Assembly: GCA_021513695.1 (NCBI GenBank)
Contig: CP084166.1
Coordinates: 2,816,001 to 2,880,000 of the forward strand
Direction: 5' to 3'
Source: Candidatus Heimdallarchaeum aukensis
GTDB lineage: Archaea; Asgardarchaeota; Heimdallarchaeia; Heimdallarchaeales; Heimdallarchaeaceae
Length of the DNA: 64,000 nucleotides
In this document: piece after piece, positions 29,551 to 61,581 of the stretch
Numbering within the stretch: the first letter of the stretch is position 1
How the letters are laid out: each line of letters starts with the position of its first letter
The notes under the pieces: model-generated
The model's database searches: none
The model's input: the letters and a program-made list of their open reading frames with translations, nothing else
Told to the model about the DNA's origin: nothing
Program-made: the position numbers and the translations under genes

Positions 29551-29620
29551 CAAAAATTCTTTTTCTTTTTATTTTTATTTCAAAGCATTTTTAAGTTCTA
29601 TTAGTTTACAACTAATTAAA

Positions 29621-30540: not shown

Positions 30541-30995
30541 GTGAAAAAGAAGTTGAAGACATAAAAGAAGTTGAAGACATAAAAGAAGTTGAAGACATAA
30601 AAGAAGTTGAGGAAAGAGAAAAACTTCCAAAAAAAGAAAAAGAAGTTAAAAAAGAGAGAAAAAGTAAATCTTTTCTTCCTAAGATTAAAGAAGTAATCAT
30701 TAAGTCCTCAAATTACTTTTTTGTAGCAATATTATATCTAAAAGTTATCAAACCTGCATTTTATGGCTTAAAAATAGGTGTAAATTTTCTTTTAGAATTA
30801 GGAAAAAATTTCTTTGTAATAGTTTCAAAGTTTTTTTACAAGTTGTATATGGTTATTAAAAAGAACATGGAAGAATTATCATTTTTTGTTCATAGATTTG
30901 AGCGTGCACCGCTTAATCTTCAAATATGGGTTACAAGTGTATTTGTTTTTCTATTAGTTTCAATTTGGATAGCTTTCGGGGGTAGAGTGGGATGA
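30537..30995 (+). CDS. Membrane protein with an N-terminal acidic (EVEDIK)n repeat and a K/E-rich linker, then 2 TM
   Basis: 152 aa. The 18-bp tandem repeat encodes EVEDIK x3.6. 'atga' overlap with the next gene. Confidence 0.45.
   Translation: MSEKEVEDIKEVEDIKEVEDIKEVEEREKLPKKEKEVKKERKSKSFLPKIKEVIIKSSNYFFVAILYLKVIKPAFYGLKIGVNFLLELGKNFFVIVSKFFYKLYMVIKKNMEELSFFVHRFERAPLNLQIWVTSVFVFLLVSIWIAFGGRVG
30549..30613 (+). repeat. Tandem 18-bp repeat gaagttgaagacataaaa x3.6 (in-frame, coding)
   Basis: Exact copies at 30549-30566, 30567-30584 and 30585-30602, then a diverged partial copy 'gaagttgagga'. Confidence 0.85.
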
Positions 30996-33509: not shown

Positions 33510-33608
33510 AAAGAGAAATTTAAAACTAATGATTATTTGAAAAATCTCTTCAAGATTATTAAAAAAAGAGAAAAAAGTAATTTTTAATTAATATTTGTTG
33601 ATTTTTCG

Positions 33609-34685
33609 TTAAATAATTCTAGAACCGTTTACAAACTCGTTAAACCAAATATGGGCGTTGTGCCTGTCTGTATAAACAGGAGGAGCTTTAAAACCATAAG
33701 CACAGACGGAAGAAAGAGGACCTCCAACAGCTCGGTTAATAGCTATTTTCACACCTCGAATGACATCAAATAGGGTCGCAGCTCCATTAGGTCCATCTAA
33801 TGTTTCTAAACGAATGTCAATCTTAATAGGTGTTCCAATAAATGTCTCTCCATAGATCCAAAAATGACCAATACGACGATTACCAAGAAACTCAAGATAG
33901 TCAGAAGTCCCAGAAGCAATATTGATCTGACCTTGAAAAGCGTTTTTTATTGTATTTTCTTTTACTGTACGCTTGTAAGCTTTACGGTCGTCATCTAAAG
34001 TGTTTAGAGTTTCTAATCCTCCACTAACATCTAGTTGATAAGTATCTTTAATCCTGATTCCTTGTTCTGTCAAAATTTCTAAAATACCCTTATGGAGAAC
34101 AGTGCCACCATATAGGCTTTGAAGATCGTCTCCAACTAATGGAATATTAGCTTGACGGAATTTACGAGCCCAAAGAGGGTCACTAGCAATGAAAGTGGGA
34201 GTACAGTTAACAAAAGCAATCTCTGCATCTAAAGCAGCTTGAGCATAAAATTCTACAGCTTTTTCTGCACCAGTAGGTAAAGCGCAAATTAACATCTCTG
34301 CTCCAGATTCTCTCAAACGTTGCACAACATCTACCTCAGGGGAGTCAGAAACCTCAATAACATCAGCTAAAGTACCAGTAATGCCATCTAAAACAGGACC
34401 TTTTTCAACAATTACACCAGAAGGTGAAAGTTCAAGAAACTTAGGGGTGCTGTTAATCGATGCAAAAATTGCCTCAGAAAGATCTTTACCTACTTTAGTT
34501 TTATCTACATCGAAAGCACCTACAATATGAATAGTATTCACTCCATAGTTAGCCATTGAGGGATGTAGCAAGTTATTACAAGCATCTTTGTTCTTACGTA
34601 AATATTCAATCCCTTGAACTAAACCAGATGCAATGTTACCAACACCAGCAATAGCGACATTAATACGTTTTTCCATAATAATCAC
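33609..34685 (-). CDS. myo-Inositol-1-phosphate synthase family protein, divergent paralog
   Basis: 358 aa. 'VAIAGVGNIASGLVQGIEY', 'GAFDVDKTKVGKD', 'LVGDDLQS', 'GPLSSVCAYGFKAPP' parallel the adjacent ino1-like gene at roughly 40% identity by eye. Confidence 0.7.
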   Translation of the reverse strand: MIIMEKRINVAIAGVGNIASGLVQGIEYLRKNKDACNNLLHPSMANYGVNTIHIVGAFDVDKTKVGKDLSEAIFASINSTPKFLELSPSGVIVEKGPVLDGITGTLADVIEVSDSPEVDVVQRLRESGAEMLICALPTGAEKAVEFYAQAALDAEIAFVNCTPTFIASDPLWARKFRQANIPLVGDDLQSLYGGTVLHKGILEILTEQGIRIKDTYQLDVSGGLETLNTLDDDRKAYKRTVKENTIKNAFQGQINIASGTSDYLEFLGNRRIGHFWIYGETFIGTPIKIDIRLETLDGPNGAATLFDVIRGVKIAINRAVGGPLSSVCAYGFKAPPVYTDRHNAHIWFNEFVNGSRII

Positions 34686-34690
34686 CTTAA

Positions 34691-35773
34691 CTAATTAGAA
34701 ACCTCCCCTTTGATAAATTTCTCAACAAGATCATGTGCAATAGGGTCAGGAATTTGCTTGGGAGGATGTTTGAAGAAGTAACTAGAAACACTCTCTAATT
34801 TTCCACCTATCCCACGATCTTTAGCAATCTTAAGAGCTCGAACAACATCAATCATAACTCCTGCAGAATTAGGAGAATCTTGAACACTAAGTTTAAGTTG
34901 AACAGTTATTGGTTGTTCACCGAAATTCTTTCCTTTAAGCCACAAATAACAAACTTTCTCATCTTCTAGGAAAGGAACATAATCACTTGGACCAATACGA
35001 GTAGGAACTTCATAAGGAATCATACTAGTAACAGCTTCAGTTTTAGAGACACGTTTTGTTTGTAGTCGATACTCTTTTTTCATATTTTCAAAATCAGTGT
35101 TTCCTCCAACGTTCAATTGAAAAGTTTCATCGATCTTTATTCCTCGCTCATGAGCAAGACGGACAAGCATACGATGAAGAATAGTTGCACCTAATTGAGA
35201 TTTTATGTCATCTCCCGCTACTGGTACGCCTTTTTCTGCAAATTTTGCAGCCCATTCTTCATTACTTGCTATAAAAGCAGGAATACCATTAGCAAAGGCA
35301 ACGTTTGCATCAAGTGCTGCTTGAGCATATATTTTTGTAGCTTCTTCAGAACCAACAGGTAAGAAATTTATTAATACATCTGTTTTAGTTTCTTTCAAAA
35401 CTTTAGCTACATCTACAGGTTTAATTTCGTTCTCATCATAACAATAGAATGATTCTCTCATGTGTGGGGCTACACCATCAGAAATGGGGCCAGGCAATAC
35501 AGTTACTCCCTTGTGTGGTACGTCAGCAAACTTATTGCACACGTTGGGTGGTTGCCAAATTGCTTCAGAAATATCTTTCCCTATTTTCATTTTATTAACT
35601 TCGAACGCTGCTACCACTTCTACATCTCTAATGTGATAAGGTCCGAACTTTACGTGCATGATTCCAGGAACAAAATCATCTTCTTTGGCATTTTTGTAAT
35701 ATTCTAATCCTTGAATTAGCGCTGAAGCGCAATTTCCTAGTCCAGCAATCGCAATTCTTACTTTTTCTGTCAT
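34691..35773 (-). CDS. ino1: myo-Inositol-1-phosphate synthase (bacterial/archaeal Ino1 type)
   Basis: Collinear with M. tuberculosis Ino1 as I recall it: 'IAIAGLGNCASALIQGLEYY', 'PGIMHVKFGPYHIRDV', 'GDDIKSQLGATILHR', 'LNVGGNTDF', 'SPNSAGVMIDVVRALKIAKDRGIGG'. Confidence 0.85.
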   Translation of the reverse strand: MTEKVRIAIAGLGNCASALIQGLEYYKNAKEDDFVPGIMHVKFGPYHIRDVEVVAAFEVNKMKIGKDISEAIWQPPNVCNKFADVPHKGVTVLPGPISDGVAPHMRESFYCYDENEIKPVDVAKVLKETKTDVLINFLPVGSEEATKIYAQAALDANVAFANGIPAFIASNEEWAAKFAEKGVPVAGDDIKSQLGATILHRMLVRLAHERGIKIDETFQLNVGGNTDFENMKKEYRLQTKRVSKTEAVTSMIPYEVPTRIGPSDYVPFLEDEKVCYLWLKGKNFGEQPITVQLKLSVQDSPNSAGVMIDVVRALKIAKDRGIGGKLESVSSYFFKHPPKQIPDPIAHDLVEKFIKGEVSN

Positions 35774-36052
35774 TTAATGTCTTCTCCTTTTTCGAGAATA
35801 ATTTTTAATTTTACTACTTCTTTGTTTTAAAAACTGTATATAAAGTTTTATCAAGTTGATAATTATAGTTTACAAGTAGTTGTTAGTTATGTTTTTTTAT
35901 AAATTAAAATGAAAATGAAGAAAAAATGAAAAGTCAATTCTTATTTGATTTTATTCATCCAAATTTAATTTTTAATAACTATATTCTTTAAAATTTTTTA
36001 AAAAAATGGAAAAAGAAAAACCTTTTTTACGTTAAGCATTTTTTTTAAACAG
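35774..36052. promoter_or_regulatory. 279-bp very AT-rich divergent intergenic region (promoters for ino1, minus strand, and the ABC exporter operon, plus strand)
   Basis: Non-coding in all frames, with multiple TATA-like 'tttaaaa/ttataa' elements. The exact BRE/TATA positions are not resolved. Confidence 0.3.
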
Positions 36053-37852
36053 ATGGCTTGGTTAGAACAAAAAAGAAAGAGAAAACATTCATTTAAGGAA
36101 ATAATGAGTCTTTTGCTTCCTTATTTATCAAGAAAGAAGCTAGGGCTAATATTTGTTAGTGTGATCTCTTTTCTATCTGCAATAGTAGGTCTTGTTACCC
36201 CCCAGTTAATAAAGTACATCATCGATATAGCCATTCCAAGTAATAACGTTAAGCTTGTTTATTTATTAGGTGGAGCGGTTCTCTTAACAGCAATTGTTAC
36301 AGGTTTGTTAGTCTATGCTACACGTTTTTATTCTGCATTATACGCTCAACAAATAGTTATGGAATTGAGAAACGATATTTATGAAACTTTACAGATGTTA
36401 CATCTGGATTACTATAACGAAGAAAACACTGGTCAAATAATGACTAGAGTTACAACGGATTTAAATGCAATTCAAAGTTTAGTTTCTTTTACTCTTCGCC
36501 TACTTATGAATGGCGTAATTTTCTTCATTGGTGCTTATGCAGCTATGATTTCCATGAATGCAAAACTTGGAGGAATATTGTTAGGACTCTTTCCAGGTTT
36601 CTTATGGTTAGTTTATTGGTTTAGTAAAAAAGTTCGTCCTATTTTTTATCAATCTCGAACAAAATTTGGTGAAGTAACATCCATTTTACAAGAAAATGTC
36701 ACAGGAGCTCATGTAGTTAGAGGTTTTGCTCAAGAAGAGAGTGAAATTGAGAAATTTGATAAAGCTAATGCAGAATATAGAGATTTAATAGTTAAAGCTC
36801 GAATCTACCGTTCATTTTATTTCTCCTTTATGCTCTTTCTAATAGGTTTAGGAGCTTCAATTGTTTTACTAGTTGGTGGATTAGCAGTTATGAGAGGAGA
36901 GATGGGAAGAGGAGAATTTATAGCATTTATATCCTATTTAGCAATGCTATCAGGTCCAACAAGACAACTAACTTGGTTGGTAGGAATAATTCAGCGAGCT
37001 TTGGCAAGTGGAGATAGAATAATTGAATTGTTATCTGGTAAGAAAGAAGTACAAGAAGATCCTAATGCCATTGATCCACCTGTTTTTAAAGGTAAAATAG
37101 AATATGAAAACGTTTCTTTTGGTTATGATGAGGTTGTGGTGCTAAAGAATATTAATGTAGTTATTCCACCAGGTCAAAAAGTCTTGATACTAGGTGGAAC
37201 AGGCTCAGGAAAAACTAGTTTTGTAAACCTTATTCCTCGTTTCTATGACCCAGTTACTGGAGTAGTAAAAATAGATGATATTGATATTAAACGCTATAAA
37301 TTGAAGAAAATGAGAAAGCAAATAGGTTTTGTTCTCCAAGAAACCTTTCTATTTAATGCGACAATAAAAGAAAATATAGCTTTTGGGAACCCTGAAGCAA
37401 CAGAAGAAGAAATAATAGCAGCAGCTAAAACAGCAAAAATACACGATTTCATTTCAGAATTGCCTGATGGTTATCAAACAAGAATAGGTGATAGAGGAAT
37501 TACTTTAAGTGGAGGGCAAAAACAAAGATTGTCTATTGCTAGAACTCTTTTAACTAATCCATCTATTCTAATATTTGATGATTCTACAGCTTCTGTCGAT
37601 GCAGAAACAGAGTATCACATTCAAGAAGCTTTAGATATATTAAGCAGAGGTAGAACAACAATTATCATCTCACAGAGGATTTCTTCAGTGAAATACGCTG
37701 ATAGAATACTAGTTTTTGATCAAGGAGAAATAATACAAGATGGAACACATGAAGAACTTATTAAACAAGAAGGAATTTACAAAGAAATATATGAAACACT
37801 TGCAGAAAGCTACGTTATTCCTTCAAAACTTTTAGCAGAAGGGGGAGATTAA
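36053..37852 (+). CDS. ABC exporter, fused permease-ATPase (type I exporter, heterodimer half 1)
   Basis: 6 TM N-terminal domain. Walker A 'GGTGSGKTS', signature 'LSGGQKQRLSIAR', Walker B 'LIFDDSTASVD'. Confidence 0.85.
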   Translation: MAWLEQKRKRKHSFKEIMSLLLPYLSRKKLGLIFVSVISFLSAIVGLVTPQLIKYIIDIAIPSNNVKLVYLLGGAVLLTAIVTGLLVYATRFYSALYAQQIVMELRNDIYETLQMLHLDYYNEENTGQIMTRVTTDLNAIQSLVSFTLRLLMNGVIFFIGAYAAMISMNAKLGGILLGLFPGFLWLVYWFSKKVRPIFYQSRTKFGEVTSILQENVTGAHVVRGFAQEESEIEKFDKANAEYRDLIVKARIYRSFYFSFMLFLIGLGASIVLLVGGLAVMRGEMGRGEFIAFISYLAMLSGPTRQLTWLVGIIQRALASGDRIIELLSGKKEVQEDPNAIDPPVFKGKIEYENVSFGYDEVVVLKNINVVIPPGQKVLILGGTGSGKTSFVNLIPRFYDPVTGVVKIDDIDIKRYKLKKMRKQIGFVLQETFLFNATIKENIAFGNPEATEEEIIAAAKTAKIHDFISELPDGYQTRIGDRGITLSGGQKQRLSIARTLLTNPSILIFDDSTASVDAETEYHIQEALDILSRGRTTIIISQRISSVKYADRILVFDQGEIIQDGTHEELIKQEGIYKEIYETLAESYVIPSKLLAEGGD

Positions 37853-39682
37853 ATGGGTTGGGCAGTAAGAAGACTAGCACGAGAAGAAGAAGAAAGAAAG
37901 AAAATATATTCTGACAGAGAACTTTTTGTTAAGGTAATCAAAATTTTTGGCTACTATAAAGCAGAAACATTTTCAGTTATTGCTATCATAATCACAGTTT
38001 CTGTCTTTTCTTCTCTAATCCCTATAATCATGCAAAGAGCGATAGATTCATTCATCTATGTAGGAATATCTACAGAAAGAACTAAAGGCATTATAATTAT
38101 GGCTTCTATCTACCTTACTTTCATATTGATGAATGCAGCTTTAATATTTATTCGAACTGTATTTTTCTCAAAGCTAGGTCAAAAAATAATCTATAGACTA
38201 CGAACTGAATTATTTAGAAAACTTCAGTATCTATCCTTCAGTTATTTTACAGAAACAGAATCAGGAAGAACAATCTCTAAAGTTACAAATGATGTAGATG
38301 CACTAGGAGAACTGTTGACTACAGGATTAATAGATATCTTTGCTGATTTTTTCAGTTTAATTTGGATAGTAGCGATAATGTTTAGCTACGACATAAAAAT
38401 GACTTTACTCACTTTTACTGTTATACCTATTCTTATTTTTGTAATATTAATGTTCCAACGTAAAGTGAGAGTAGCATATAGAAAAACTAGAGTGGCTATA
38501 GCCAAAGTTACAGCTAATCTACAAGAAAGTATAAGTGGAGTAAAAGTGACAAAGGCATTATCAAGAGAAGAGGAAAATATATCCACATTTAAGAGCATTA
38601 ACCAAGAAAATTATAAGGCAAATGTAGAAGCAGCAGGAGTTTCAGCATTATTTATGCCACTTATACAATTTATCTCAGCTATAGGAACAACCATAATACT
38701 CATCTTTGGTGGAATTTCAATCATTAAATTTGGGACAATAACCATCGGAGAACTTTATGCATTCTTAGAATATTCAAATAGGTTCTTTATGCCAATAATC
38801 AGTTTATTCACCTTCTATACAGTAATTCAATCAGGATTTGCAGCAGCAGAAAGAATATTCGAAGTTTTGGATGAAGAATATACTGTAAAAAACAGTGAAA
38901 ATCCAATTATCCCAGAAAAAATTGAAGGAAGAATAGAGTTTAGAAATGTTCACTTTTCTTATACTCCTGATGTTCCAATACTTAAAAACATAAACTTGGT
39001 AATTGAAAAAGGAGAAAGTGTAGCTCTTGTAGGTGAAACAGGAGCAGGAAAAACAACAATGACTAAACTCCTTTCACGTTATTATGATGTAATTGAAGGA
39101 GAGTTATTAATCGATGGAATAAATATTAAAGATATAGAACTCTCTTTCTTAAGAAAAAATATAGCTGTTGTTCCTCAAGATGTCTTTCTTTTCTCAGGAA
39201 CAATAATGGATAATTTGAAGTATGGAAAGAAAGAAGCAACAGATGAAGAAGTGTATAGAATTTGTAAAACTTTAAGTTTACATAAATACATTCTCAATCT
39301 TCCAGAAGGTTATGAAACAGATGTAAAAGAAGGAGGATCAAGGTTATCTCTAGGACAAAGACAGTTAATCTCACTAGCTCGAGCTTTAATCGCTGATCCT
39401 AAAATACTTATTTTAGATGAATGTAGTAGTTCAGTTGATCCCATTACTGAAGCGCTAATCCAAAAAGGAATAGACATCTTACTTAGAAATAGAACCTCGA
39501 TAATCATAGCTCACAGATTAAGTACAATAAAAAATGCTTCAAAGATAGTGGTTCTTGATCATGGAGAGATAATAGAACAAGGAACACATCAAGAATTACT
39601 TAAGAAAATGGGTAAATATTACTCTCTCTATGAAACACAACTAACAGCGAATACAATAGTAACTGAGGAAAGCAAGAAGTAG
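37853..39682 (+). CDS. ABC exporter, fused permease-ATPase (heterodimer half 2)
   Basis: Walker A 'GETGAGKTT', degenerate signature 'LSLGQRQLISLARAL', Walker B 'LILDECSSSVD'. Its start abuts the preceding stop. Confidence 0.85.
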   Translation: MGWAVRRLAREEEERKKIYSDRELFVKVIKIFGYYKAETFSVIAIIITVSVFSSLIPIIMQRAIDSFIYVGISTERTKGIIIMASIYLTFILMNAALIFIRTVFFSKLGQKIIYRLRTELFRKLQYLSFSYFTETESGRTISKVTNDVDALGELLTTGLIDIFADFFSLIWIVAIMFSYDIKMTLLTFTVIPILIFVILMFQRKVRVAYRKTRVAIAKVTANLQESISGVKVTKALSREEENISTFKSINQENYKANVEAAGVSALFMPLIQFISAIGTTIILIFGGISIIKFGTITIGELYAFLEYSNRFFMPIISLFTFYTVIQSGFAAAERIFEVLDEEYTVKNSENPIIPEKIEGRIEFRNVHFSYTPDVPILKNINLVIEKGESVALVGETGAGKTTMTKLLSRYYDVIEGELLIDGINIKDIELSFLRKNIAVVPQDVFLFSGTIMDNLKYGKKEATDEEVYRICKTLSLHKYILNLPEGYETDVKEGGSRLSLGQRQLISLARALIADPKILILDECSSSVDPITEALIQKGIDILLRNRTSIIIAHRLSTIKNASKIVVLDHGEIIEQGTHQELLKKMGKYYSLYETQLTANTIVTEESKK

Positions 39683-39752
39683 AATAATCTTTGAATGAAA
39701 CAACAACTCCATTTCAAAATCTTTTTTATAAGTTAATTTTTTACCTTCTTGT

Positions 39753-41609
39753 ATGAAACTTAAAGAGCTTATTGCTAATGAAGAAAAAAGAGCTCTGTGT
39801 TTAGGAAATGAAGCCATCGCTCGAGGAGCAATAGAAGCGGGAGTACAAGTTTTTGCAGCTTATCCTGGTACTCCTTCTTCAGAAGTAAGTATGGCTTTAA
39901 ACGCAGCAGCTCCTGAATTAGGTTTTTACGCTGAATGGAGTGCAAATGAAAAAGTAGCTATGGAAATTGCTTATGCTGCTTCAATTAGTGGAAAAAGAGC
40001 TATGACTGCATGTAAACATGTAGGGTTAAATGTTGCTGCTGATGTTTTCTATTCTTTCATGTACATGGGTTGTAAAGCAGGTTTTGTAACTGTTGTGGGA
40101 GATGACCCTCATTGCTTTAGCAGTCAAAATGAACAAGATTCAAGATGGTTAGGTGTATCTGCTAATTTTGTAATAGTAGAACCATCAGATCCTCATGAAG
40201 CGAAAGAATTCACTAAAAGGGCATTTGATATAAGTGAAAAGTTCGGTGTTCCTATACTCTTAAGATCAACAACAAGAATATCTCACGCTCGAGCAGATGT
40301 GAAATTTGAGAAATATGATGTAGATTTTACTTACAACGATGGAACGTTTGAGAAAACAAGGCAATTTGTTTGTCTTCCTGCTTTAGCAAGAGCCAACCAT
40401 CCAAAACTAGTACAAAAAATGAAAGAAATAGCAGAATGGATACCAGAAAGTGGTTTAACAAAAATCGAAGGACCAGAAGAGCACGAGTATGGTATAATAA
40501 CTTCTGGCATATCTTATGCTTATGTAAAAGATGCTCTTCGCAATCTAGGTGTAGACTTGCCTATTTTGAAATTGGGAATGGTCTCTCCACTCGATGAAAA
40601 ATCGATTTTAGAATTTGCTAAAACTAAAAAGCAAATAATTTTCATTGAAGAGGTTGACCCCTATTTAGAAGATAGAATTTCTGCTTTATTTATGAAAAAT
40701 GGGTTACAAGTAAAAGTTCATGGAAAATATAACGGAATAACAAAATATTATCATGAGTTAAATTCTTATCTTGTAGCTCATGCTATCGCTAAAGTAATTG
40801 GAATAGAAACTGAAAATGTTGATAAAATACAACAAGCTGTAGAAGAAACAAAAGAATATGTTCCTATTAGACCACCTTTATTCTGTGCTGGATGTCAACA
40901 TCGAGCTACTTTTTATGAATTGTTGAAAGAAGTAAAGAAAAATAACGCTATTTTTGCTTCAGATATAGGTTGTTATTCTATGGATCCTTGGGTAACAGAC
41001 ACCATAGTATGTATGGGTGCATCAATAGGTATGGGTAACGGTTTTTCTAGAGTTATAACAGATAAACCTGTATTTGCAATTATAGGCGATTCTACTTTCT
41101 TTCACACTGGTCTACCGGCTCTAGCAAACGCAGTTTACAATAATGCAAATCTGAATGTACTAGTTTTAGATAATAGAATGACGGCAATGACAGGATTTCA
41201 ACCAAATCCAACAGAGAGTATACCAATAGAAAATGTTGCAAAAGGAATGGGAATTGACTATGTTGTAGAATTCGACCCATATGACTTTGAGAACTCGAAA
41301 AAAGTAATAAGAGAGGCAATAGAACATGAAGGTCCAACTGTTCTTATAATGAGAAAAATATGCGCAAATGAATGGTGGAGACAAACAAGAAGAAAAGGAA
41401 TAAAAATAGAAACATACGAAATCGACCCTGAATTGTGTACAGCTTGTGGAATATGTTTAGTGCAATATCAATGCCCAGCAATTTCATGGAGTCTCGATAC
41501 CAATTCAAAAGGAAAGAGATACGCAGTAATAGATCCTTCAATGTGTACAGGTTGCAGTGTTTGCTCTCAAATCTGTCCATCCGGAGCAATTTCCAAAAGA
41601 AAGGAGTAA
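39753..41609 (+). CDS. iorA: Indolepyruvate:ferredoxin oxidoreductase alpha subunit
   Basis: 618 aa. TPP-binding 'GDSTFFHTG'. Two C-terminal 4Fe-4S ferredoxin motifs 'CTACGICLVQYQCP' and 'CTGCSVCSQICP'. Confidence 0.85.
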   Translation: MKLKELIANEEKRALCLGNEAIARGAIEAGVQVFAAYPGTPSSEVSMALNAAAPELGFYAEWSANEKVAMEIAYAASISGKRAMTACKHVGLNVAADVFYSFMYMGCKAGFVTVVGDDPHCFSSQNEQDSRWLGVSANFVIVEPSDPHEAKEFTKRAFDISEKFGVPILLRSTTRISHARADVKFEKYDVDFTYNDGTFEKTRQFVCLPALARANHPKLVQKMKEIAEWIPESGLTKIEGPEEHEYGIITSGISYAYVKDALRNLGVDLPILKLGMVSPLDEKSILEFAKTKKQIIFIEEVDPYLEDRISALFMKNGLQVKVHGKYNGITKYYHELNSYLVAHAIAKVIGIETENVDKIQQAVEETKEYVPIRPPLFCAGCQHRATFYELLKEVKKNNAIFASDIGCYSMDPWVTDTIVCMGASIGMGNGFSRVITDKPVFAIIGDSTFFHTGLPALANAVYNNANLNVLVLDNRMTAMTGFQPNPTESIPIENVAKGMGIDYVVEFDPYDFENSKKVIREAIEHEGPTVLIMRKICANEWWRQTRRKGIKIETYEIDPELCTACGICLVQYQCPAISWSLDTNSKGKRYAVIDPSMCTGCSVCSQICPSGAISKRKE

Positions 41610-42218
41610 GTGATGAAAATGACAAAAGAATACAGTATGGTAATTGTTGGTGTGGGAGGACAAGGAATCCTCACTATTTCAGACATTATTTCAATAGCTA
41701 CAAGAAAGAAAGGATGGCATATACTAGGTTCTGAAGTACATGGGATGGCTCAAAAAGGAGGTTCAGTAATAACAAACTTGAAAATAGGTGAAGAACTCTA
41801 TTCTCCAACTATTCCTATAGGAGGGGCAGAACTACTAGTAGGATTAGAACAAAATGAAACTTTAAGGTATATCCAATACCTTAAACCAGGAGGAAAAGTG
41901 ATTTCAGCCAAAACTGTTCTTTACCCTGTAGGTTGGAAGAAAAACAAGAAAGCAGCTGATGAAGCTAGAGAAAAAATAGCAGAGAATCTAGCTAAATTCG
42001 ATGCAAAAGTGATAATGATTGATTCAGAAAAGTTAGCTCTAGAAGCAGGGTTGGCTTTAGCCCAAAACATAGTTATGCTAGGAGCTCTATCACAAGTAGA
42101 AGGATTTCCCTTAACTGAAGACGAGTTAAGAGAAGCTCTAAAAGAAAGAGTTCCACCAAAATATCTAGAACCAAACCTAAAAGCTTTTGAGCTTGGTATT
42201 CAAAGTATGAAATCTTAA
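41610..42218 (+). CDS. iorB: Indolepyruvate:ferredoxin oxidoreductase beta subunit
   Basis: 202 aa. 'IVGVGGQGILT' (PorG/IorB-type Rossmann-like motif). Directly follows iorA. Confidence 0.8.
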   Translation: MMKMTKEYSMVIVGVGGQGILTISDIISIATRKKGWHILGSEVHGMAQKGGSVITNLKIGEELYSPTIPIGGAELLVGLEQNETLRYIQYLKPGGKVISAKTVLYPVGWKKNKKAADEAREKIAENLAKFDAKVIMIDSEKLALEAGLALAQNIVMLGALSQVEGFPLTEDELREALKERVPPKYLEPNLKAFELGIQSMKS

Positions 42219-42313
42219 ATTCTTTTTTTCTTTTAAATTTTTCAATTTTATAATTAATCTAAAAAAATGTAATAAAAAATTGAAGTAAAAGAAAGAGAAA
42301 AATTGTTGTCAGT

Positions 42314-42622
42314 TTATTTTAACAAGTCTTCTTCTTCAGGAAGTCGAACAGTATCAATGATTTGCTCACCAACTACGACTTCATCAACACTGTGGATGGA
42401 ACAACCATAGTCGCGTAAAGTTTCTTCTATTAGTTCATAGTCTAAATCTTGTCCAACCATAGTGACGATTATCCCTTCAGTACTTCTATCAGTTTCAGTT
42501 CGAATGATATTAATAGAATCTAACCCCTCAAGTTTGCCTAGATCAAGAGCTAAGACGTCTATTCTAGGCTGATGAGGTTTCAAAACGTCCAATACTAATC
42601 TTCTAATTCTTGGATCCTTCAT
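42314..42622 (-). CDS. DUF211-like small conserved archaeal protein
   Basis: 102 aa. 'RRLVLDVLKPHQP...IHSVDEVVVG' matches my memory of the DUF211 family pattern. Low certainty. Confidence 0.4.
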   Translation of the reverse strand: MKDPRIRRLVLDVLKPHQPRIDVLALDLGKLEGLDSINIIRTETDRSTEGIIVTMVGQDLDYELIEETLRDYGCSIHSVDEVVVGEQIIDTVRLPEEEDLLK

Positions 42623-42725
42623 TTTCTTTTACCAGTTAAATGTTTAGTAATAAACAAGAAAAAATCAAGAATATAAGTATTATTATTTATAGATAAGCAT
42701 TTTTTATGTATAAGAAAAGAAAAAG

Positions 42726-43496
42726 TTATTTAGAAAGTTTTAGTTTGAAAATTCCTGGAAAGTAATACTGACCCGTTTCTTCATCCTCAACTGCCAAACC
42801 AATCTCTGCCATCTTAGACAAAGTATCAACCGCACGCTCTGAAGACCAACCTAAATGTGATACAAGAATATCTCTAGTCAAAAATTCTAACCCTGTAGCT
42901 AACTGAAGAACAGCGCGAAAATCAGAAGAAGTTTCTAAAGGCTTGAATCTGATTAATACTTCATCATTTCCAAGATCAATTTCAGGTGGAATAACTTTAT
43001 CTTTCTGTAGAGAACGAATAGCTCGAATAATATGACTGGGACTAACTTCCCAGTTAGGACGAGTCTCCTTGAAATAATCAATGAAATTACCTAAAGTAAT
43101 AGCTCCACCAAATTCTTCTAATTCCTCATTACCTATTATTAGTATTTCTTGTCTAAGTTTTTGTTCGAAACCTTTACTGCCAAAAAGAACAGGAGTTTTC
43201 ATTTTTCCTGCAGTACCAATTGAACCAGTAAGTCCAGCTTGTTCTCGCAATTGCATGATTTTGTTAACTAAAAGTTTCGAAGACTTTAGAAGCTTCTTTG
43301 AATCCTTTTCAACTTTAATAATTCCTTCTTTAAGAATCTCTTTTCGTTTTTGTTTATCTTTCTCCTGAGTGGAAACTAAATCAGTATCAAACGCTTTATA
43401 CGCTTGTGAAAGAGAAGAACGAAAATCTTCATCAGAAATTTCTCTAACTTCCTTTTTTTCGTCTTCTGTTTCTTTCTTTCCTTTTCTTTTACCCAT
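42726..43496 (-). CDS. vps22: ESCRT-II subunit Vps22/SNF8 (EAP30-domain, tandem winged-helix) homolog
   Basis: The C-terminal half aligns by eye with human SNF8: 'VSPSHIIRAIRSLQKDK' ~ 'VSQDDLIRAIKKLKALG'; 'AVLQLATGLEFLTRDILVSHLGWSSERAVDTLSKMAEIGLAVEDEETGQYYFPGIF' ~ 'VVLQLAEKNGYVTVSEIKASLKWETERARQVLEHLLKEGLAWLDLQAPGEAHYWLPALF'. Also 'GSKGFEQ' ~ 'SGKGFWSE'. Start set at the internal Met (MGKRKGKK). Confidence 0.7.
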   Translation of the reverse strand: MGKRKGKKETEDEKKEVREISDEDFRSSLSQAYKAFDTDLVSTQEKDKQKRKEILKEGIIKVEKDSKKLLKSSKLLVNKIMQLREQAGLTGSIGTAGKMKTPVLFGSKGFEQKLRQEILIIGNEELEEFGGAITLGNFIDYFKETRPNWEVSPSHIIRAIRSLQKDKVIPPEIDLGNDEVLIRFKPLETSSDFRAVLQLATGLEFLTRDILVSHLGWSSERAVDTLSKMAEIGLAVEDEETGQYYFPGIFKLKLSK

Positions 43497-43751
43497 CAGT
43501 ATCAAGAGAAAATAAACAAGCATTATTTAAAAAACTATTCAATTCGAAAAATGAATGTTTTTTAAAATCTAAAAAATAATTAACCGTTTCTAGCAGCTCT
43601 AACCAATTTCTGTTAAATCCAAACATTAAAAACATTTGTAGCTAAAGAAGCTTTAAGTCTAAAGAATATTAAAATTAGGATTTAAAAATATAAAAACAAA
43701 AATCAAAAATAGTATTAATAAATTAGAACATAAATAAATAAACAATTTATA

Positions 43752-45119
43752 GTGATGCTTATGAAAAATATACAAATTACTGCTTACGGCGCAACCAACT
43801 TCGTAGGAAGAAGTGCTTTTACAATAAGCGATAAAGATAGAACAGTGATGTTAGACTGTGGAATAGAACTAGTGCCAAAGAAACTGTCTATAGCACCAAA
43901 GGGTGTAGATGCAATAGCCAAAAATGTAGACGCTTTTTTGCTCAGCCATGCACATATCGACCATTCAGGATATGTTCCTAAACTAGCTCAGAAAGGGTAT
44001 AAGGGAAAATTCTATATGACCCATCCAACAAAAGATATAGTTTTTAGATTATGGTTAGATCATCTGAAAATAGAGGGAGAAAGACATTGGACAGAAGATG
44101 ATCTGGATAAAACATTCAATAGAATAGTAACGAAAAAATATCATGAAAAATTCAAAATAGTAGATGGAATAACTGCAGAATTCATAAATGCTGGACATAT
44201 TTTAGGTGCAGCACAAATTTTAATAGATTGGGACGGGCAATTAATATTATATTCAGGAGATATAAACGACAGACAAACACCTTTCTTTGATGGATTTGAA
44301 TATCCTGAAGAAGAAGTAGATATACTAATTACAGAAAGTACAAATGGAGATAGATATGTCCCAGAGAGAAAAAAGATAGATGTAGGTTTTAGATTACTTT
44401 CAAAACAAGTAGCAGAAAGCGGAAATAAGATGCTTCTACCCAGTTTTGCAGTAGGAAGATCACAAGAACTACTAACAACTCTAGCTTTTGATGATGACAT
44501 CGACGATGTTCCAATATATACTGATGGAATGATAAATATGATGAATACTTTGACTGAAGCATATTTAACAAAAGATTGGGTGTCTGACAGATTTCTAAAA
44601 GAATTGAAAAGTAGAAAAATGAATTCACCATTTAATAAAGAGAATATTATCCCAATAAATAGAGCTCAATCTCCTCATCAATTCAGAAGACAAATAGCTA
44701 AAAGTAAAGAAGGAGCAATCATAGTAACAACTTCAGGAATGCTAGAAGGAGGACCAATACATACTTACTTGGATTACTGCGCAGGAAATGAAAATAACAC
44801 ACTAGGTTTCACAGGATATCAAGTAGAAGGAACAATAGGAAGAGAATTATACGATGGAGCAGAAGAAATAACAATATTTAACGATAGAAGATTCAACAAC
44901 CCGAAAAAAATAAAGGTAAAATGTAAAATAATGAAATTCCCGTATTCAGGACATAGTTCAGCAGAAGGACTAGCAAAATATGTGAAAAAAATAAATGCAA
45001 AGAAAGTTATTCTTGTCCATGGAATAGAAAAAAACCAATTGTATCTAAGAAACTTAATGAAAGAATATTCTCATCCAATAACTCTGGAAGAAAAAAAGCC
45101 AGAAACAATTAGAATATGA
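43752..45119 (+). CDS. Metallo-beta-lactamase-fold beta-CASP ribonuclease (aCPSF2/RNase J-like, no KH domains)
   Basis: 455 aa. 'LSHAHIDHSGYVP' (HxHxDH), a later 'HxxGA' motif, and C-terminal 'HGIE' (beta-CASP motif C-like). Confidence 0.75.
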   Translation: MMLMKNIQITAYGATNFVGRSAFTISDKDRTVMLDCGIELVPKKLSIAPKGVDAIAKNVDAFLLSHAHIDHSGYVPKLAQKGYKGKFYMTHPTKDIVFRLWLDHLKIEGERHWTEDDLDKTFNRIVTKKYHEKFKIVDGITAEFINAGHILGAAQILIDWDGQLILYSGDINDRQTPFFDGFEYPEEEVDILITESTNGDRYVPERKKIDVGFRLLSKQVAESGNKMLLPSFAVGRSQELLTTLAFDDDIDDVPIYTDGMINMMNTLTEAYLTKDWVSDRFLKELKSRKMNSPFNKENIIPINRAQSPHQFRRQIAKSKEGAIIVTTSGMLEGGPIHTYLDYCAGNENNTLGFTGYQVEGTIGRELYDGAEEITIFNDRRFNNPKKIKVKCKIMKFPYSGHSSAEGLAKYVKKINAKKVILVHGIEKNQLYLRNLMKEYSHPITLEEKKPETIRI

Positions 45120-45260
45120 TTTCTACTATAATTTTAATAATTTTTCTTTTAGAAATGAGTTAGATTTTTGTTCTCTTTCTAATTATAAGCCACTTTTTTA
45201 AGTTTAAAATAAAAACGAAAAAATCGCAGAATAAACAGTAAGAAAGTAGATTCTTGTTGA

Positions 45261-45307
45261 TGTTTACAAATAACTGTATACTCAACTCACATTTGTTTAC
45301 AAATAAC
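45261..45307 (+). promoter_or_regulatory. Two exact 14-bp direct repeats tgtttacaaataac (45261-45274 and 45294-45307), 33 bp apart, 110-155 bp upstream of the TSP3-repeat protein gene
   Basis: Read directly from the sequence. A third, partial 'catttacaa' lies at ~45379. Confidence 0.3.
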
Positions 45308-45416
45308 AGAAAAAGTTAATTATTGATTTATTCATTATCAAGTGATTCAAATTTAAAAGCTTGAAAATGTTCAATAAACATTTACAATTTAATGTTAGAG
45401 TCTGTAGGGTTGAAAA

Positions 45417-48068
45417 ATGAAAAGAATAACAACATATAGACAGTTAGGTTTGGTGCTAATATTAATAGCAACTACAACTTTCTTACTTTATCTTTCGACT
45501 CATAAAGAGGAAAATATGGTCCTGCAATCTAATAAAATAACAATAGATTCAATGTCTGGCGTAAATTCAGATGAAAATAGAACTGTAAAAAAAGCTTATT
45601 CAGTTCATTCTCCTATTCTTATTGAGTCTGATGATGATCTTACAGGTTTTCCAGGTTTAGGAACAAAGGATGACCCCTATGTCATTGAAAACTACAATAT
45701 AACTGACTCTACAACTCATGGTATAAAGATATCTGGGACTACAAAGTATATTCTTATTCACGATTGTTATCTTAATGGGGGAGGTTCAGGTTCATCATTT
45801 TATGGTATTTATATTGACTCTACTACAGATGGAACTATAACTGTGACTAACAACACAATAAGCAACTATGCTACTGGTATTTACCTTTCTTCTTGTTCTA
45901 ATAACTCCTTTACTTTTAATATAATAACGAATAGTAATAATGACGGCTTATATCTCTCTTCTAGCTCTAACAATACTTTTTCTTCTAATACAATAACAAA
46001 CAGTGACGATGATGGAATAACTATCTCTTTTAGTTCTGGTAACACACTCACATTTAATAATATAACAAATAATAACGGTGAGGGAATTTATTTTTCTTTT
46101 AGTTCAAATAATAACCTTGCTTCAAATATTATAGCAGAGAATATTAATTATGCAATAGATCTCTATTCTAGTTCAAGTAATACTTTTGTAAAAAACTTAT
46201 TTATCAAAAATAATCAAGGAGGTTCGTCTCAAGCTAGTGATAGTGGAACAATTAATAAATTCTATACTGATATAACTGGAAACTATTGGTATGATTGGAA
46301 TGGAACAGGAATATATGCGATAGATGGTTCAGCTAACAACTTTGATCCTTATCCTATGCATGTAGACCTTGATCGAGATGGTATGCCTGACAAATGGGAA
46401 GAAGATAATGGATTAAACACTAATATCAATGATTCTGCAGAAGATCTCGATAGTGACGGTTTAACTAATTTAGAAGAATACACTAGCAACACTAATCCTA
46501 ACTACTCTGACACTGATTCAGATGGCTTATCAGACGGAGAAGAGGTTCACACTTATTTTACTGATCCACTTGATTTTGATACTGACGATGATGGATTATT
46601 GGATGGTGAAGAAGTTAAAACCTATTCTTCAAATCCCAACAATCCAGATACTGATTCGGATGGTATGCCTGATGGTTGGGAGGTGAATTATGGTTTAAAC
46701 CCCTCAAATGATGAGTCTACAGAGGATTTTGATGGTGACGGTTTAAGTAACGTTGCTGAGTATTCTCACAATACTGACCCTACTAACCCTGATACTGATA
46801 ATGATGGCTTGTTCGACGGTCAGGAAATTAATACTTATGGTACTGATCCTACTAACCCTGATACTGACGGCGATGGTTTATCTGATGGCGAAGAGGTTGA
46901 TGTTTATGGTACAGACCCTCTTAATCCAGATACAGATAATGATGGTGTATCTGATGGTGAAGAAGTAAGTAAAGGAAAGAATCCAAAAGGTTCTTCTCTT
47001 TTTGCATATTTGTTCTCTTCACTTGCTAGTTCTATAATTACTATAATAGTTTTAGTGTTAGTAATTACAATCATTATCGCTTCTATAGTCGATATAATGA
47101 AGAAAAAAAAGAATAAACAGATGGATGAAACAAAGAAGCAAAAGATAACGAAAATAACGAAAAAAAAGAAAATAGGGTTGAAGTTCTTTAATGAGAAAAT
47201 AGATTCACTCGAAAATGAGTGGTCATGGGTAGAAAGAGAACAAAAAAGCGGTCAATCTTTATTCGATACAGCTTTTTCTGAGAAAATATCTGAACTATTT
47301 GTAGAATTAATTGAGACATTAATAGGATTTAATTACGCTTTTACAAAAGATGTAAAGTATCTAACAAACCTTGATTGGTTAAGCGCAAAAAAAAGACTAA
47401 ATAGCTTAGTTGACCAATTCAGAGCTTTATTGCTCAAAGAGCTAGAAGAAATTGATATTGATACAAAATTTGAAGAAATAAATAATGAATTGACAAAGAT
47501 AACTTTAGAAAATATTGAGAAACCCTCTGAAGATAAATTATTACAACCATTTGACGTTTTACTTGATACACTTGTAAAAATTGACAAGAATATAAGAAAA
47601 ACTGAGTCATTTATTGACGAATTCACTTTTTCTAAACTGACTTCTTACTGGGGAAAACTGTCTGACATTATAGTTACAGTAAAATCAGAAGTTGAAAATA
47701 AAAGAAGTGAGGTAAGGAAGAATATCAAAGAAGTAAAAGAAGTATTTACTGATAAAAGGATGAACCTTGAAAGGTTAGAGACCCTTAATAAAGTAGTTTC
47801 AGTCTATAAACAGATTTCACTTTCCAAACTAGCTTACTTGCTCAAATTTTCATCTAACTCTGCCCTAATTTACTGGATGTCAAAGCAAAATTTGGATTTT
47901 TCTTATAGGATTGTTGATGATGAGATAATTTTTGAAAAACAGGAAGAAGGAGAAAAAGAAGAAGGAAAAGAAGAAATAGAATACGATAGTGAAGTGGCTG
48001 ATGCAATAGACTCTCTATTAAGACAATACGATGAATGGTCAAAAGGTGATGAAGGAAAAAAGATTTAA
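45417..48068 (+). CDS. Type-I-like transmembrane surface protein: N-terminal anchor/signal, parallel beta-helix (PbH1/NosD-like) repeats, about 9 thrombospondin-type-3-like Ca-binding repeats, single TM, ~320-aa cytoplasmic coiled-coil tail
   Basis: 883 aa. 'TNNTISNYATGIYLSS..NNSFTFNIITNSNNDGLYLSS' PbH1 repeats. 'DTDSDGLSDGEEV', 'DTDDDGLLDGEEV', 'DTDNDGLFDGQEI', 'DTDGDGLSDGEEV', 'DTDNDGVSDGEEV' repeats. TM 'IITIIVLVLVITIIIASIV' followed by poly-K. Confidence 0.7.
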   Translation: MKRITTYRQLGLVLILIATTTFLLYLSTHKEENMVLQSNKITIDSMSGVNSDENRTVKKAYSVHSPILIESDDDLTGFPGLGTKDDPYVIENYNITDSTTHGIKISGTTKYILIHDCYLNGGGSGSSFYGIYIDSTTDGTITVTNNTISNYATGIYLSSCSNNSFTFNIITNSNNDGLYLSSSSNNTFSSNTITNSDDDGITISFSSGNTLTFNNITNNNGEGIYFSFSSNNNLASNIIAENINYAIDLYSSSSNTFVKNLFIKNNQGGSSQASDSGTINKFYTDITGNYWYDWNGTGIYAIDGSANNFDPYPMHVDLDRDGMPDKWEEDNGLNTNINDSAEDLDSDGLTNLEEYTSNTNPNYSDTDSDGLSDGEEVHTYFTDPLDFDTDDDGLLDGEEVKTYSSNPNNPDTDSDGMPDGWEVNYGLNPSNDESTEDFDGDGLSNVAEYSHNTDPTNPDTDNDGLFDGQEINTYGTDPTNPDTDGDGLSDGEEVDVYGTDPLNPDTDNDGVSDGEEVSKGKNPKGSSLFAYLFSSLASSIITIIVLVLVITIIIASIVDIMKKKKNKQMDETKKQKITKITKKKKIGLKFFNEKIDSLENEWSWVEREQKSGQSLFDTAFSEKISELFVELIETLIGFNYAFTKDVKYLTNLDWLSAKKRLNSLVDQFRALLLKELEEIDIDTKFEEINNELTKITLENIEKPSEDKLLQPFDVLLDTLVKIDKNIRKTESFIDEFTFSKLTSYWGKLSDIIVTVKSEVENKRSEVRKNIKEVKEVFTDKRMNLERLETLNKVVSVYKQISLSKLAYLLKFSSNSALIYWMSKQNLDFSYRIVDDEIIFEKQEEGEKEEGKEEIEYDSEVADAIDSLLRQYDEWSKGDEGKKI

Positions 48069-58747: not shown

Positions 58748-58885
58748 TATTTTTCACTCTCAATAAAATCTAAACAGTAATTATTCACCGACTTTTCAGA
58801 ATCTATAAAAAGCTTTTTGTTAAATACTGATTTTATTTTATACTTACAACCTATTTTATGCTCCTTTTCTTTTGATAAACTTTTT

Positions 58886-60376: not shown

Positions 60377-60380
60377 TTTA

Positions 60381-61523: not shown

Positions 61524-61581
61524 TTCTAGTTGTACTACGAGAAAATACTATATAAACTCAACTAGAAAAAGAAAAAAAGAA

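What the first reader, a model, noticed from the sequence alone, without database searches (positions are those of the whole stretch)
42726..43496. Stand-alone ESCRT-II Vps22/SNF8 homolog outside any ESCRT gene cluster
The C-terminal ~150 residues align convincingly by eye to human SNF8/EAP30, including the terminal 'GLAW.D.Q.PGE..YWFP' winged-helix signature (here 'GLAVEDEETGQYYFPGIF'). In described Asgard genomes, ESCRT-II genes usually sit with Vps25, ESCRT-III, Vps4 and ubiquitin-system genes. Here the flanks are a DUF211-like gene and a beta-CASP RNase, so this may be a dispersed or paralogous copy. It also fixes the lineage of the contig.
Basis: partly seen in the sequence, partly recalled or inferred. 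Interest (0 to 1): 0.55.

Follow-up and report, generated by a model that had tools for sequence, protein, structure and literature searches.

The report
Second Vps22-like gene in Heimdallarchaeum
The gene is a real, conserved second copy of the ESCRT-II subunit Vps22 in a Heimdall-group archaeon; it lies far from the genome's ESCRT cluster, almost always next to an RNA-cutting enzyme gene, and its role is untested.

Summary
Window 42726-43496 (-) encodes a 256-aa EAP30/Vps22-family protein: Pfam PF04157 at 43 bits, a tandem winged-helix model at pLDDT 84.5, and best fold matches to yeast Vps22 and human SNF8. It is identical to GenBank UJG40671.1 of Ca. Heimdallarchaeum aukensis.

It is a paralogue, not the genome's ESCRT-II Vps22. 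The canonical Vps22 (UJG39578.1, 79% identical to the biochemically studied HeimAB125_14050) lies elsewhere, in a full ubiquitin-ESCRT cluster. The window protein is only 29% identical to HeimAB125_14050.

The paralogue forms its own family, found in Heimdallarchaeaceae, Kariarchaeum and related lineages. Weaker relatives occur in Hodarchaeota and Wukongarchaeota. It has its own conserved TATA-type promoter.

In nearly all loci it sits head-to-head with a KH-less CPSF73-type beta-CASP ribonuclease gene, even where every other neighbour has changed.

It keeps all Vps22 hallmarks, including the Asp that bridges Vps25 Arg83. The most likely role is an alternative ESCRT-II stalk subunit. A role tied to the ribonuclease is the main rival.

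Its AB_125 orthologue is already listed, undiscussed, in a published supplementary table. Interest is moderate.

The parts
42726..43496 (-). Coding sequence of the 256-aa Vps22-like paralogue (EAP30 family). It comprises a basic N-terminal tail, helices at residues 22-86, a conserved linker at 88-106, a helix at 107-125, WH1 at 132-183, WH2 at 191-245 and a C-terminal YYFPG motif.
43523..43544 (-). Conserved promoter-like block AATTGAATAGTTTTTTAAATA (BRE/TATA type), 27-48 nt upstream of the ATG at 43496. Its last base is the A of the upstream ATG at 43523.
   Evidence: The alignment of 30 orthologous intergenic regions shows the consensus A.TTGAATA.T.TTTTATAT just upstream of the start. Window sequence. 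Reading it as a BRE/TATA element is an inference from archaeal promoter architecture.
43497..43751 (.). The 255-bp divergent intergenic region shared with the beta-CASP gene. The equivalent region is 119-255 bp in other Heimdallarchaeaceae.
43752..45119 (+). KH-less CPSF73/aCPSF-type beta-CASP ribonuclease (455 aa), the conserved head-to-head neighbour of the paralogue.
   Evidence: Pfam Lactamase_B_6, Beta-Casp and RMMBL. PDB sequence matches: aCPSF1 core 2xr1 at 6e-59, CPSF73 at 4e-49, plus IntS11. NCBIfam aCPSF1 model matched only at positions 173-630 of 631, so the KH domains are absent. Adjacency.
42314..42622 (-). DUF211 gene 103 bp downstream on the same strand. This neighbour is genus-specific and not part of the conserved unit.
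   Evidence: Pfam PF02680. It is present only in the H. aukensis and H. endolithica loci. Other family members have a PNP/uridine phosphorylase gene at this position.

Best explanation
Shown: the gene encodes a full-length member of the Vps22/SNF8 (EAP30) family. It is a second, anciently diverged paralogue of the organism's ESCRT-II Vps22. It has been kept as an independently transcribed gene across Heimdallarchaeaceae, Kariarchaeum and related lineages. It lies outside the ubiquitin-ESCRT cluster, head-to-head with a KH-less beta-CASP ribonuclease gene.

Inferred mechanism: it works as an alternative ESCRT-II stalk subunit. The N-terminal helices would pair it with the canonical Vps22, as Vps36 pairs with Vps22 in eukaryotes, or with itself. 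The C-terminal winged helix would dock a Vps25 through the conserved Asp238, equivalent to yeast Vps22 Asp214. Vps25 would then nucleate ESCRT-III/Vps4. The basic N-terminus would contact membrane, as in eukaryotic Vps22.

On this reading the beta-CASP adjacency is mainly historical. In Hodarchaeales LC_3, a beta-CASP-adjacent EAP30 gene heads a Vps20-Vps24-Vps4-Vps25 operon. This suggests the beta-CASP gene flanked the ancestral ESCRT module and that the paralogue stayed behind when the rest moved.

For: Paralogy: 29% identity to HeimAB125_14050. H. aukensis and H. endolithica each also have a 79%-identical orthologue of that protein in a cluster with UEV-Vps23-Vps28, E1, ubiquitin, Vps25, Vps4 and two Snf7 genes. 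AB_125 has both genes (locus L041).

Selection: 33 species-level loci, 46 invariant columns among 17 family members, and a conserved promoter block.

ESCRT-II competence: Asp238 aligns with yeast Vps22 Asp214, which salt-bridges Vps25 Arg83 (PMC539351). It is D in 16 of 17 close members and D or E in 25 of 30 distant members, against D in 28 of 34 canonical and eukaryotic sequences. The charge pattern, an acidic WH core (pI about 5.9) with a basic N-terminus, matches eukaryotic Vps22.

History: the LC_3 arrangement beta-CASP(-)/EAP30(+)-Vps20-Vps24-Vps4-Vps25 appears in Makarova 2024 Table S2.
Against: No interaction was or could be tested here.

Hatano 2022 found that the canonical AB_125 Vps22 homodimerises on its own, so a second stalk subunit is not required.

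In Heimdallarchaeaceae, Kariarchaeum and related lineages, the gene is never next to ESCRT genes. In LC_2, the published table lists this stand-alone type as the only EAP30 gene and lists no Vps25 locus, although that genome is incomplete.

I could not establish whether the LC_3 operon-linked EAP30 is the orthologue of this paralogue or of the canonical Vps22.

The beta-CASP pairing survives complete reshuffling of all other neighbours, which is more than history alone easily explains.
Confidence: 0.5

Rival explanations
1. The paralogue has left the ESCRT pathway and works with the neighbouring KH-less CPSF73-type beta-CASP ribonuclease. It would act as a winged-helix adaptor or scaffold for RNA 3'-end processing, decay or transcription termination. 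The two genes would be co-regulated from the shared 120-255 bp divergent promoter region.
For: The head-to-head pair is present in about 28 of 33 species-level loci. It is also present in four deeply diverged lineages: L012, L013 (Kariarchaeum), L042 and L043. There, EAP30p identity to the window protein is 31-42%. In three of these loci, no other gene within 8 kb has a homologue anywhere in the 64-kb window; L042 has one more, a RIO-type kinase gene.

In L007 the two genes are still within 2.6 kb of each other. The beta-CASP proteins co-diverge with the paralogue at 45-63% identity.

A rearrangement in the genus Heimdallarchaeum replaced everything downstream of the paralogue but left the beta-CASP junction intact.

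From my own knowledge, not tested here: conserved divergently transcribed pairs are a recognised predictor of functional linkage. Eukaryotic ESCRT-II (the EAP complex) also has reported links to RNA and to Pol II elongation.
Against: The WH core is acidic, which is not what a nucleic-acid-binding surface looks like. No conserved operator or palindrome is seen between the genes, only a promoter block next to the paralogue.

The pairing is absent in L044, L046, and the Hodarchaeota and Wukongarchaeota relatives. In LC_3 the beta-CASP-adjacent EAP30 gene is followed by ESCRT-III, Vps4 and Vps25, which ties the adjacency to ESCRT history. No paper in the searchable library links the two.
Confidence: 0.2
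2. The protein is a winged-helix transcription factor of the MarR/ArsR type that regulates the divergently transcribed beta-CASP gene. Its resemblance to EAP30 would be only the generic winged-helix fold.
Against: Homology to Vps22 runs the full length, including the N-terminal helices (E 2.9e-40 over 229 columns). No HTH family appears in Pfam at E up to 1. The tandem-WH matches of 117 aligned residues are to Vps22/SNF8. The WH region is acidic, at pI about 5.9. No conserved inverted repeat is found in the intergenic region.
Confidence: 0.05
3. It is the genome's only Vps22, simply dispersed away from the other ESCRT genes.
For: No ESCRT gene lies in the 64-kb window.
Against: The same chromosome encodes P0122 (UJG39578.1), the true orthologue of HeimAB125_14050, inside a complete ubiquitin-ESCRT cluster. 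The sister species shows the same layout, with the two genes about 1.4 Mb apart.
Confidence: 0.01
4. It is a redundant or decaying duplicate with no function of its own.
For: Its sequence has diverged strongly from the canonical copy (29% identity).
Against: It is an intact ORF in 33 species-level genomes and many metagenomic contigs. It has 46 invariant columns and a conserved promoter. The family spans several Heimdall-group lineages.
Confidence: 0.03

Closest known systems
Canonical Asgard Vps22 (HeimAB125_14050 type; asCOG cog.002769)
   Same: It shares the same Pfam family and the same asCOG. It has the same overall architecture: N-terminal helices, an IG..P linker, two winged helices and a C-terminal (Y/W)(Y/F)FPG motif. 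It has the same conserved Asp at the Vps25-contact position.
   Different: Identity is only 29-34%. It forms a separate clade: the core paralogue group has 97.5% bootstrap support and the canonical Heimdallarchaeaceae group has 100%. It is never co-directed with Vps23/Vps28 and is not in the ubiquitin-ESCRT cluster. It has a different conserved neighbour, the beta-CASP gene. It carries family-specific invariant motifs such as TRPNW in WH1 and GTAGK in the linker.
Eukaryotic Vps22/SNF8/EAP30 (PDB 3CUQ_A, 2ZME_A, 1U5T_A, 1W7P_A)
   Same: These are the best sequence and structure matches in the PDB. They share the acidic WH core with a basic N-terminus and the conserved Asp214-equivalent residue.
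   Different: Identity is 17-26%. Eukaryotic Vps22 groups with itself (81-100% bootstrap), not with the paralogue, and deeper branching is unresolved.
Eukaryotic Vps36/EAP45
   Different: The paralogue has no GLUE/PH or zinc-finger module. The paralogue profile gives no sequence hit to Vps36 even at E 10. Its structural similarity to Vps36 is lower than to Vps22. There is no evidence of shared ancestry beyond the family level.
LC_3 (Hodarchaeales) EAP30 gene As_003-p_00309 in Makarova et al. 2024, Table S2
   Same: It is an EAP30/Vps22-family gene placed head-to-head with a KH-less beta-CASP gene.
   Different: The LC_3 gene is followed by Vps20, Vps24, Vps4 and Vps25 in one direction. The window gene is followed by unrelated genes. 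I could not obtain its sequence, so orthology is undetermined.

Membership tests
EAP30/Vps22 (SNF8) protein family, Pfam PF04157 | Significant match to the family HMM above the curated threshold | tested here: met
   43 bits against a cut-off of 26.8, E 5.8e-11, profile positions 17-219 of 219. 26 of the 27 family members also carry a precomputed PF04157 hit; P0017 has none on record.
EAP30/Vps22 (SNF8) protein family, Pfam PF04157 | Core of two tandem winged-helix domains | tested here: met
EAP30/Vps22 (SNF8) protein family, Pfam PF04157 | N-terminal helical domain upstream of WH1, homologous to that of Vps22 | tested here: met
   hhalign of the paralogue profile against the canonical plus eukaryotic profile aligns from residue 23 to 254, with probability 100% and E 2.9e-40. 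The model shows helices at residues 22-86.
ESCRT-II complex subunit (functional membership) | Acidic residue on WH2 that salt-bridges Vps25 Arg83 (yeast Vps22 Asp214) | tested here: met
   Asp238 aligns with Asp214. The role of Asp214 is taken from PMC539351. The position is D in 16 of 17 close members and D or E in 25 of 30 distant members.
ESCRT-II complex subunit (functional membership) | Physical assembly with Vps25 and a second EAP30-family subunit | not testable with these tools
   Complexes cannot be modelled here and no experiment is available. Hatano 2022 tested only the canonical protein.
ESCRT-II complex subunit (functional membership) | Gene neighbourhood with Vps25, ESCRT-III, Vps4, ESCRT-I or ubiquitin genes, as is typical in Asgard genomes | tested here: not met
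   None is found in the 64-kb window. Pfam calls or tblastn with the whole cluster find none in the annotated or distant orthologous loci. The remaining species-level loci were screened only for the window's own neighbour genes. LC_3 may be an exception, but its orthology is unknown.
Canonical Asgard Vps22 orthologous group (HeimAB125_14050 type) | Orthologue-level similarity to the characterised protein and co-direction with Vps23/Vps28 | tested here: not met
   29% identity, against 79% for the true orthologues P0048/P0122 and P0049. The canonical loci L009-L011 and L052-L055 all have UEV-Vps23/Vps28 upstream, and the paralogue loci never do.
Vps36/EAP45 | N-terminal GLUE (split PH) domain, and closer similarity to Vps36 than to Vps22 | tested here: not met
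MarR/ArsR-type wHTH transcription factors | Match to an HTH regulator family and a basic DNA-binding winged helix | tested here: not met
   No HTH family appears at E up to 1. The WH region has pI about 5.9 and net charge about -4.

The most novel reading that the evidence does not exclude
The Vps22-like paralogue is a dedicated partner of the neighbouring CPSF73-type beta-CASP ribonuclease. The closest archaeal relatives of eukaryotes would then already use an ESCRT-II-type winged-helix scaffold in RNA 3'-end processing or transcription termination. That would be an archaeal antecedent of the nuclear, RNA- and Pol II-linked (EAP) face of eukaryotic ESCRT-II.

A milder version is also not excluded: Heimdall-group archaea build a heterodimeric Vps22/Vps22-like stalk, analogous to Vps22/Vps36. 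This would go against the published statement that Asgard genomes encode a single Vps22/36-like protein.
Probability: 0.12. Interest if true: 0.8.

Novelty: new member of a known kind. Interest (0 to 1): 0.42.

Why it matters
ESCRT-II in eukaryotes is a Vps22-Vps36-(Vps25)2 heterotetramer. The current account is that Asgard archaea have one Vps22/36-like gene, make a Vps22 homodimer, and that the Vps22/Vps36 split is a eukaryotic innovation (Hatano 2022).

AB_125 is the Heimdallarchaeaceae genome used for that biochemistry. It and its relatives carry a second, conserved, full-length Vps22-like protein that was not tested. If that protein joins ESCRT-II, the archaeal complex is already heteromeric in this lineage. 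If it works with the beta-CASP nuclease instead, it is an early case of an ESCRT-II fold recruited to RNA metabolism.

Either outcome can be tested directly with recombinant proteins that laboratories already know how to make. As it stands, the gene is a catalogued but uncharacterised paralogue, and there is no evidence of a new kind of system.

Tried and rejected
1. Generic MarR-like winged helix. Rejected on full-length profile homology, the tandem-WH fold and the acidic charge.

2. Sole, dispersed Vps22. Rejected because the canonical copy was found in the same genome.

3. A shared operator in the divergent intergenic region. The alignment of 30 regions shows only a promoter-like block next to the paralogue. 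The sigma-70 and terminator scan is not informative for archaea.

4. Deep phylogeny. A neighbour-joining tree with 200 bootstraps, rooted on human VPS36, left the deep branches unresolved. The whole paralogue-plus-Hodarchaeota/Wukongarchaeota clade has only 36% support and the Heimdall-wide paralogue clade 57.5%. I therefore make no claim about when the duplication happened or about a relationship to Vps36.

5. 'The paralogue occurs in lineages lacking ESCRT.' I dropped this. The sentence in Makarova 2024 that Hodarchaeia and Wukongarchaeia 'have none' appears to refer to accessory families, because those lineages have Vps4 in that paper's own tree list.

6. Classifying the LC_3 operon-linked EAP30 gene. 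The last contig look-up returned an 828-bp contig. One metagenome scan found nothing. The second returned four canonical loci, all linked to ESCRT-I and none to beta-CASP. No Vps22 alignment is held in the Hatano supplements.

8. No tRNA or Rfam element is present in the window.

Full report
**1. What is there**

The minus-strand ORF at 42726..43523 encodes 265 aa, and a second ATG at 43496 gives 256 aa. The 256-aa form is identical to GenBank UJG40671.1, 'EAP30/Vps36 family vacuolar-sorting protein' of Ca. Heimdallarchaeum aukensis, which lies on a 3.08-Mb contig. Window 32726-45641 is 100% identical in DNA to a contig assembled from run SRR15988954. The window is 91% identical to the Ca. H. 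endolithica chromosome. So the lineage is fixed.

The start at 43496 is the likelier one. A block conserved across 30 orthologous intergenic regions (consensus A.TTGAATA.T.TTTTATAT) lies 27-48 nt upstream of it. Its last base is the A of the ATG at 43523. I read this block as a BRE/TATA promoter producing a nearly leaderless transcript. That reading is an inference from archaeal promoter architecture.

**2. Family and fold**

- Pfam EAP30 PF04157 scores 43 bits against a cut-off of 26.8, covering almost the whole profile.
- The single sequence finds human SNF8 in the PDB at E 3.9e-5. A 17-member family profile finds SNF8 at 8.6e-10 and yeast Vps22 at 1.6e-6, but no Vps36.
- An AF2 model built on 30 sequences has mean pLDDT 84.5. 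It shows helices at 22-86, a linker, a helix at 107-125 and two winged helices at 132-183 and 191-245.
- Foldseek ranks human SNF8 and yeast Vps22 first, then human VPS36.
- Profile-profile comparison with canonical Asgard plus eukaryotic Vps22 gives probability 100% and E 2.9e-40 over 229 columns, including the N-terminal helices.

**3. It is a paralogue**

The sequence of the biochemically studied HeimAB125_14050 Vps22 comes from Supplementary Data 1 of Hatano et al. 2022 (PMC9192718). The window protein is only 29% identical to it over 180 residues.

A search with HeimAB125_14050 returned 79%-identical orthologues. These include P0049 from H. endolithica and the cluster holding P0122 (UJG39578.1) from H. 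aukensis. They sit in a full ubiquitin-ESCRT cluster, in this order: Arf-like GTPase, UEV-Vps23-Vps28 fusion, a 102-aa protein, Vps22, E1 (ThiF), ubiquitin, a 132-aa protein, Vps25, Vps4 and two Snf7 genes.

None of these has a homologue in the 64-kb window (Pfam scans). In H. endolithica the two EAP30 genes lie at about 3.09 Mb and 1.71 Mb of a 3.33-Mb chromosome. AB_125 also carries both genes (L041).

**4. The paralogue family**

- The word-indexed search found 27 proteins at 41-100% identity. All those that carry an organism name are from Heimdall-group or unclassified Asgard MAGs.
- The exhaustive HMMER search found 226 representatives at E below 1e-3. A graded series of them scores well above the canonical Heimdallarchaeaceae Vps22, which scores 76 bits.
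- A scan of GTDB species representatives returned 33 loci.
- Named members include Ca. Kariarchaeum pelagius. More distant relatives include Hodarchaeota and Wukongarchaeota MAGs.
- A neighbour-joining tree with 200 bootstraps gives these supports:

| Clade | Bootstrap support |
|---|---|
| Core Heimdallarchaeaceae paralogue | 97.5% |
| Hodarchaeota-like subgroup | 94% |
| Canonical Heimdallarchaeaceae Vps22 | 100% |
| Eukaryotic Vps22 | 81-100% |
| Heimdall-wide paralogue | 57.5% |
| All paralogue-like sequences together | 36% |

The family is therefore distinct, but the age of the duplication and any relationship to Vps36 are unresolved.

**5. Genomic context**

The beta-CASP gene lies immediately upstream and divergent in about 28 of the 33 species-level loci. 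It does so too in loci whose paralogue is only 31-42% identical to the window protein: L012, L013 (Kariarchaeum), L042 and L043.

In L012, L013 and L043, no other gene within 8 kb has a homologue anywhere in the 64-kb window. L042 has one more, a RIO-type kinase gene.

In L007/L040 the nuclease gene is 2.6 kb downstream on the same strand. In L044 and L046 only a PNP/uridine phosphorylase gene is retained. The Hodarchaeota and Wukongarchaeota relatives lack the pairing.

The nuclease is a CPSF73/aCPSF-type core without KH domains. From reading its translation, I note an intact HAHIDH motif.

In the genus Heimdallarchaeum, the genes downstream of the paralogue were replaced by DUF211, POR and ABC-transporter genes. 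The ancestral neighbours are now at window 20223-26432. The beta-CASP junction is untouched.

**6. What was already recorded**

Makarova et al. 2024 (PMC10936438), Table S2, lists the AB_125 orthologue As_001-p_00607 as 'cog.002769 EAP30/Vps22 family protein' and flags it as an ESCRT component. It sits between an arCOG00541 beta-lactamase-fold exoribonuclease and a uridine phosphorylase. It shares its asCOG with the canonical As_001-p_01331. The main text says only that ESCRT-II proteins vary in number of paralogues.

Hatano et al. state that Asgard genomes possess a single Vps22/Vps36-like gene and show that the canonical AB_125 protein homodimerises. No paper in the searchable library discusses the second copy or its nuclease neighbour.

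The same Table S2 shows three further things:
- In LC_2, the only listed EAP30 gene is stand-alone and lies 3.7 kb from an arCOG00541 nuclease gene. No Vps25 locus is listed, but that genome is incomplete.
- In LC_3 (Hodarchaeales), a 465-aa beta-CASP gene lies head-to-head with an EAP30 gene that is followed by Vps20, Vps24, Vps4 and Vps25.
- LC_3 has a second EAP30 gene next to Rpo6 and S17e.

**7. Mechanism**

Shown: this is an intact, conserved, separately promoted, full-length Vps22-family protein. It keeps the Asp that corresponds to yeast Vps22 Asp214. Asp214 salt-bridges Vps25 Arg83 in ESCRT-II (PMC539351). The charge pattern is an acidic WH core with a basic N-terminus, as in eukaryotic Vps22.

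Inferred, best reading (about 0.5): it is an alternative ESCRT-II stalk subunit that binds Vps25. It pairs either with canonical Vps22, as Vps36 does, or with itself. On this reading the beta-CASP adjacency is a relic of the ancestral position of the ESCRT-III/Vps4/Vps25 module, as still seen in LC_3.

Main rival (about 0.2): a function coupled to the nuclease. The persistence of the pair through complete reshuffling of all other neighbours supports this. The acidic WH surface, the lack of an operator and the LC_3 arrangement count against it.

The transcription-factor, sole-copy and pseudogene readings are essentially excluded.

**8. Verdict**

The gene is already annotated, and its AB_125 orthologue is catalogued in a published table. 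It has never been analysed as a separate lineage. Its conserved nuclease partner and its absence from the published ESCRT-II biochemistry are worth a specialist's attention, but no new kind of system is shown. Interest is 0.42, and the novelty rating is new member of a known kind.

Noticed in passing
window 2-1783 (+): A ribonucleotide reductase large-subunit gene, cut by the window edge, carries an intein with a LAGLIDADG homing-endonuclease domain (Pfam Ribonuc_red_lgC, LAGLIDADG_3, Intein_splicing and TSCPD).
   Followed up: no
window 4485-7676 (+) and 16824-19970 (-): Two very large ORFs (1063 aa and 1048 aa) have no Pfam hit at E up to 1e-3.
   Followed up: no
window 27373-32473 (+): A block of six co-directed ORFs has almost no Pfam signal, only weak PKD/Ig-like and DUF5079 hits. 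It lies between the relocated PNP-to-epimerase segment and the polyprenyl synthase gene.
   Followed up: no
window 45417-48068 (+); L001:1751-8239: An 883-aa protein has a NosD/beta-helix domain, seven TSP3 repeats, a weak pilin/TM-like match near residues 540-585 and a long charged C-terminus. In H. endolithica the same position holds a 2162-aa version. DNA identity drops there to about 76%, against 91-92% in the flanks. This looks like a fast-evolving surface protein.
   Followed up: partly
window 20223-26432 compared with L003, L005 and other Heimdallarchaeaceae loci: In other Heimdallarchaeaceae, the segment PNP-HMGR-S17e-KaiC-PIN-epimerase directly follows the paralogue. In Heimdallarchaeum it has been moved about 16-23 kb away and inverted, and DUF211, POR and two ABC-transporter genes have taken its place. 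The two inositol-1-phosphate synthase genes and the polyprenyl synthase gene keep their position.
   Followed up: partly
Makarova 2024 Table S2, LC_3 contig As_003-n_00006 (no locus held here): In Hodarchaeales LC_3, a 465-aa beta-CASP gene lies head-to-head with an EAP30/Vps22 gene that is followed by Vps20, Vps24, Vps4 and Vps25. A second EAP30 gene sits next to Rpo6 and S17e. I could not determine which of the two is the orthologue of the window gene.
   Followed up: partly
P0283 and P0287 (Kariarchaeum-type orthologues; locus L013:8001-8678): Some sources name the Kariarchaeum orthologue 'Holliday junction resolvase'. Nothing in the sequence or fold supports that name, so it is probably an annotation error.
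   Followed up: no
window 58502-63894 (-): A run of information-processing genes: Sm/LSM, HerA-NurA, CTP synthase and a GINS subunit. RIO2 kinase, a DUF460 protein and a DRG-type GTPase lie just upstream. Several of these are syntenic with the paralogue locus in other Heimdallarchaeaceae.
   Followed up: no
L048:8708-10563 (Hodarchaeota relative): The distant Hodarchaeota relative of the paralogue is followed on the same strand by a 113-aa protein and a 463-aa Arf/Ras/Roc-type GTPase, with the S17e gene just beyond. The canonical Heimdallarchaeum cluster also starts with an Arf-like GTPase.
   Followed up: no
window 1-64000: No tRNA gene and no Rfam family at gathering score is found in the whole 64 kb.
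   Followed up: yes
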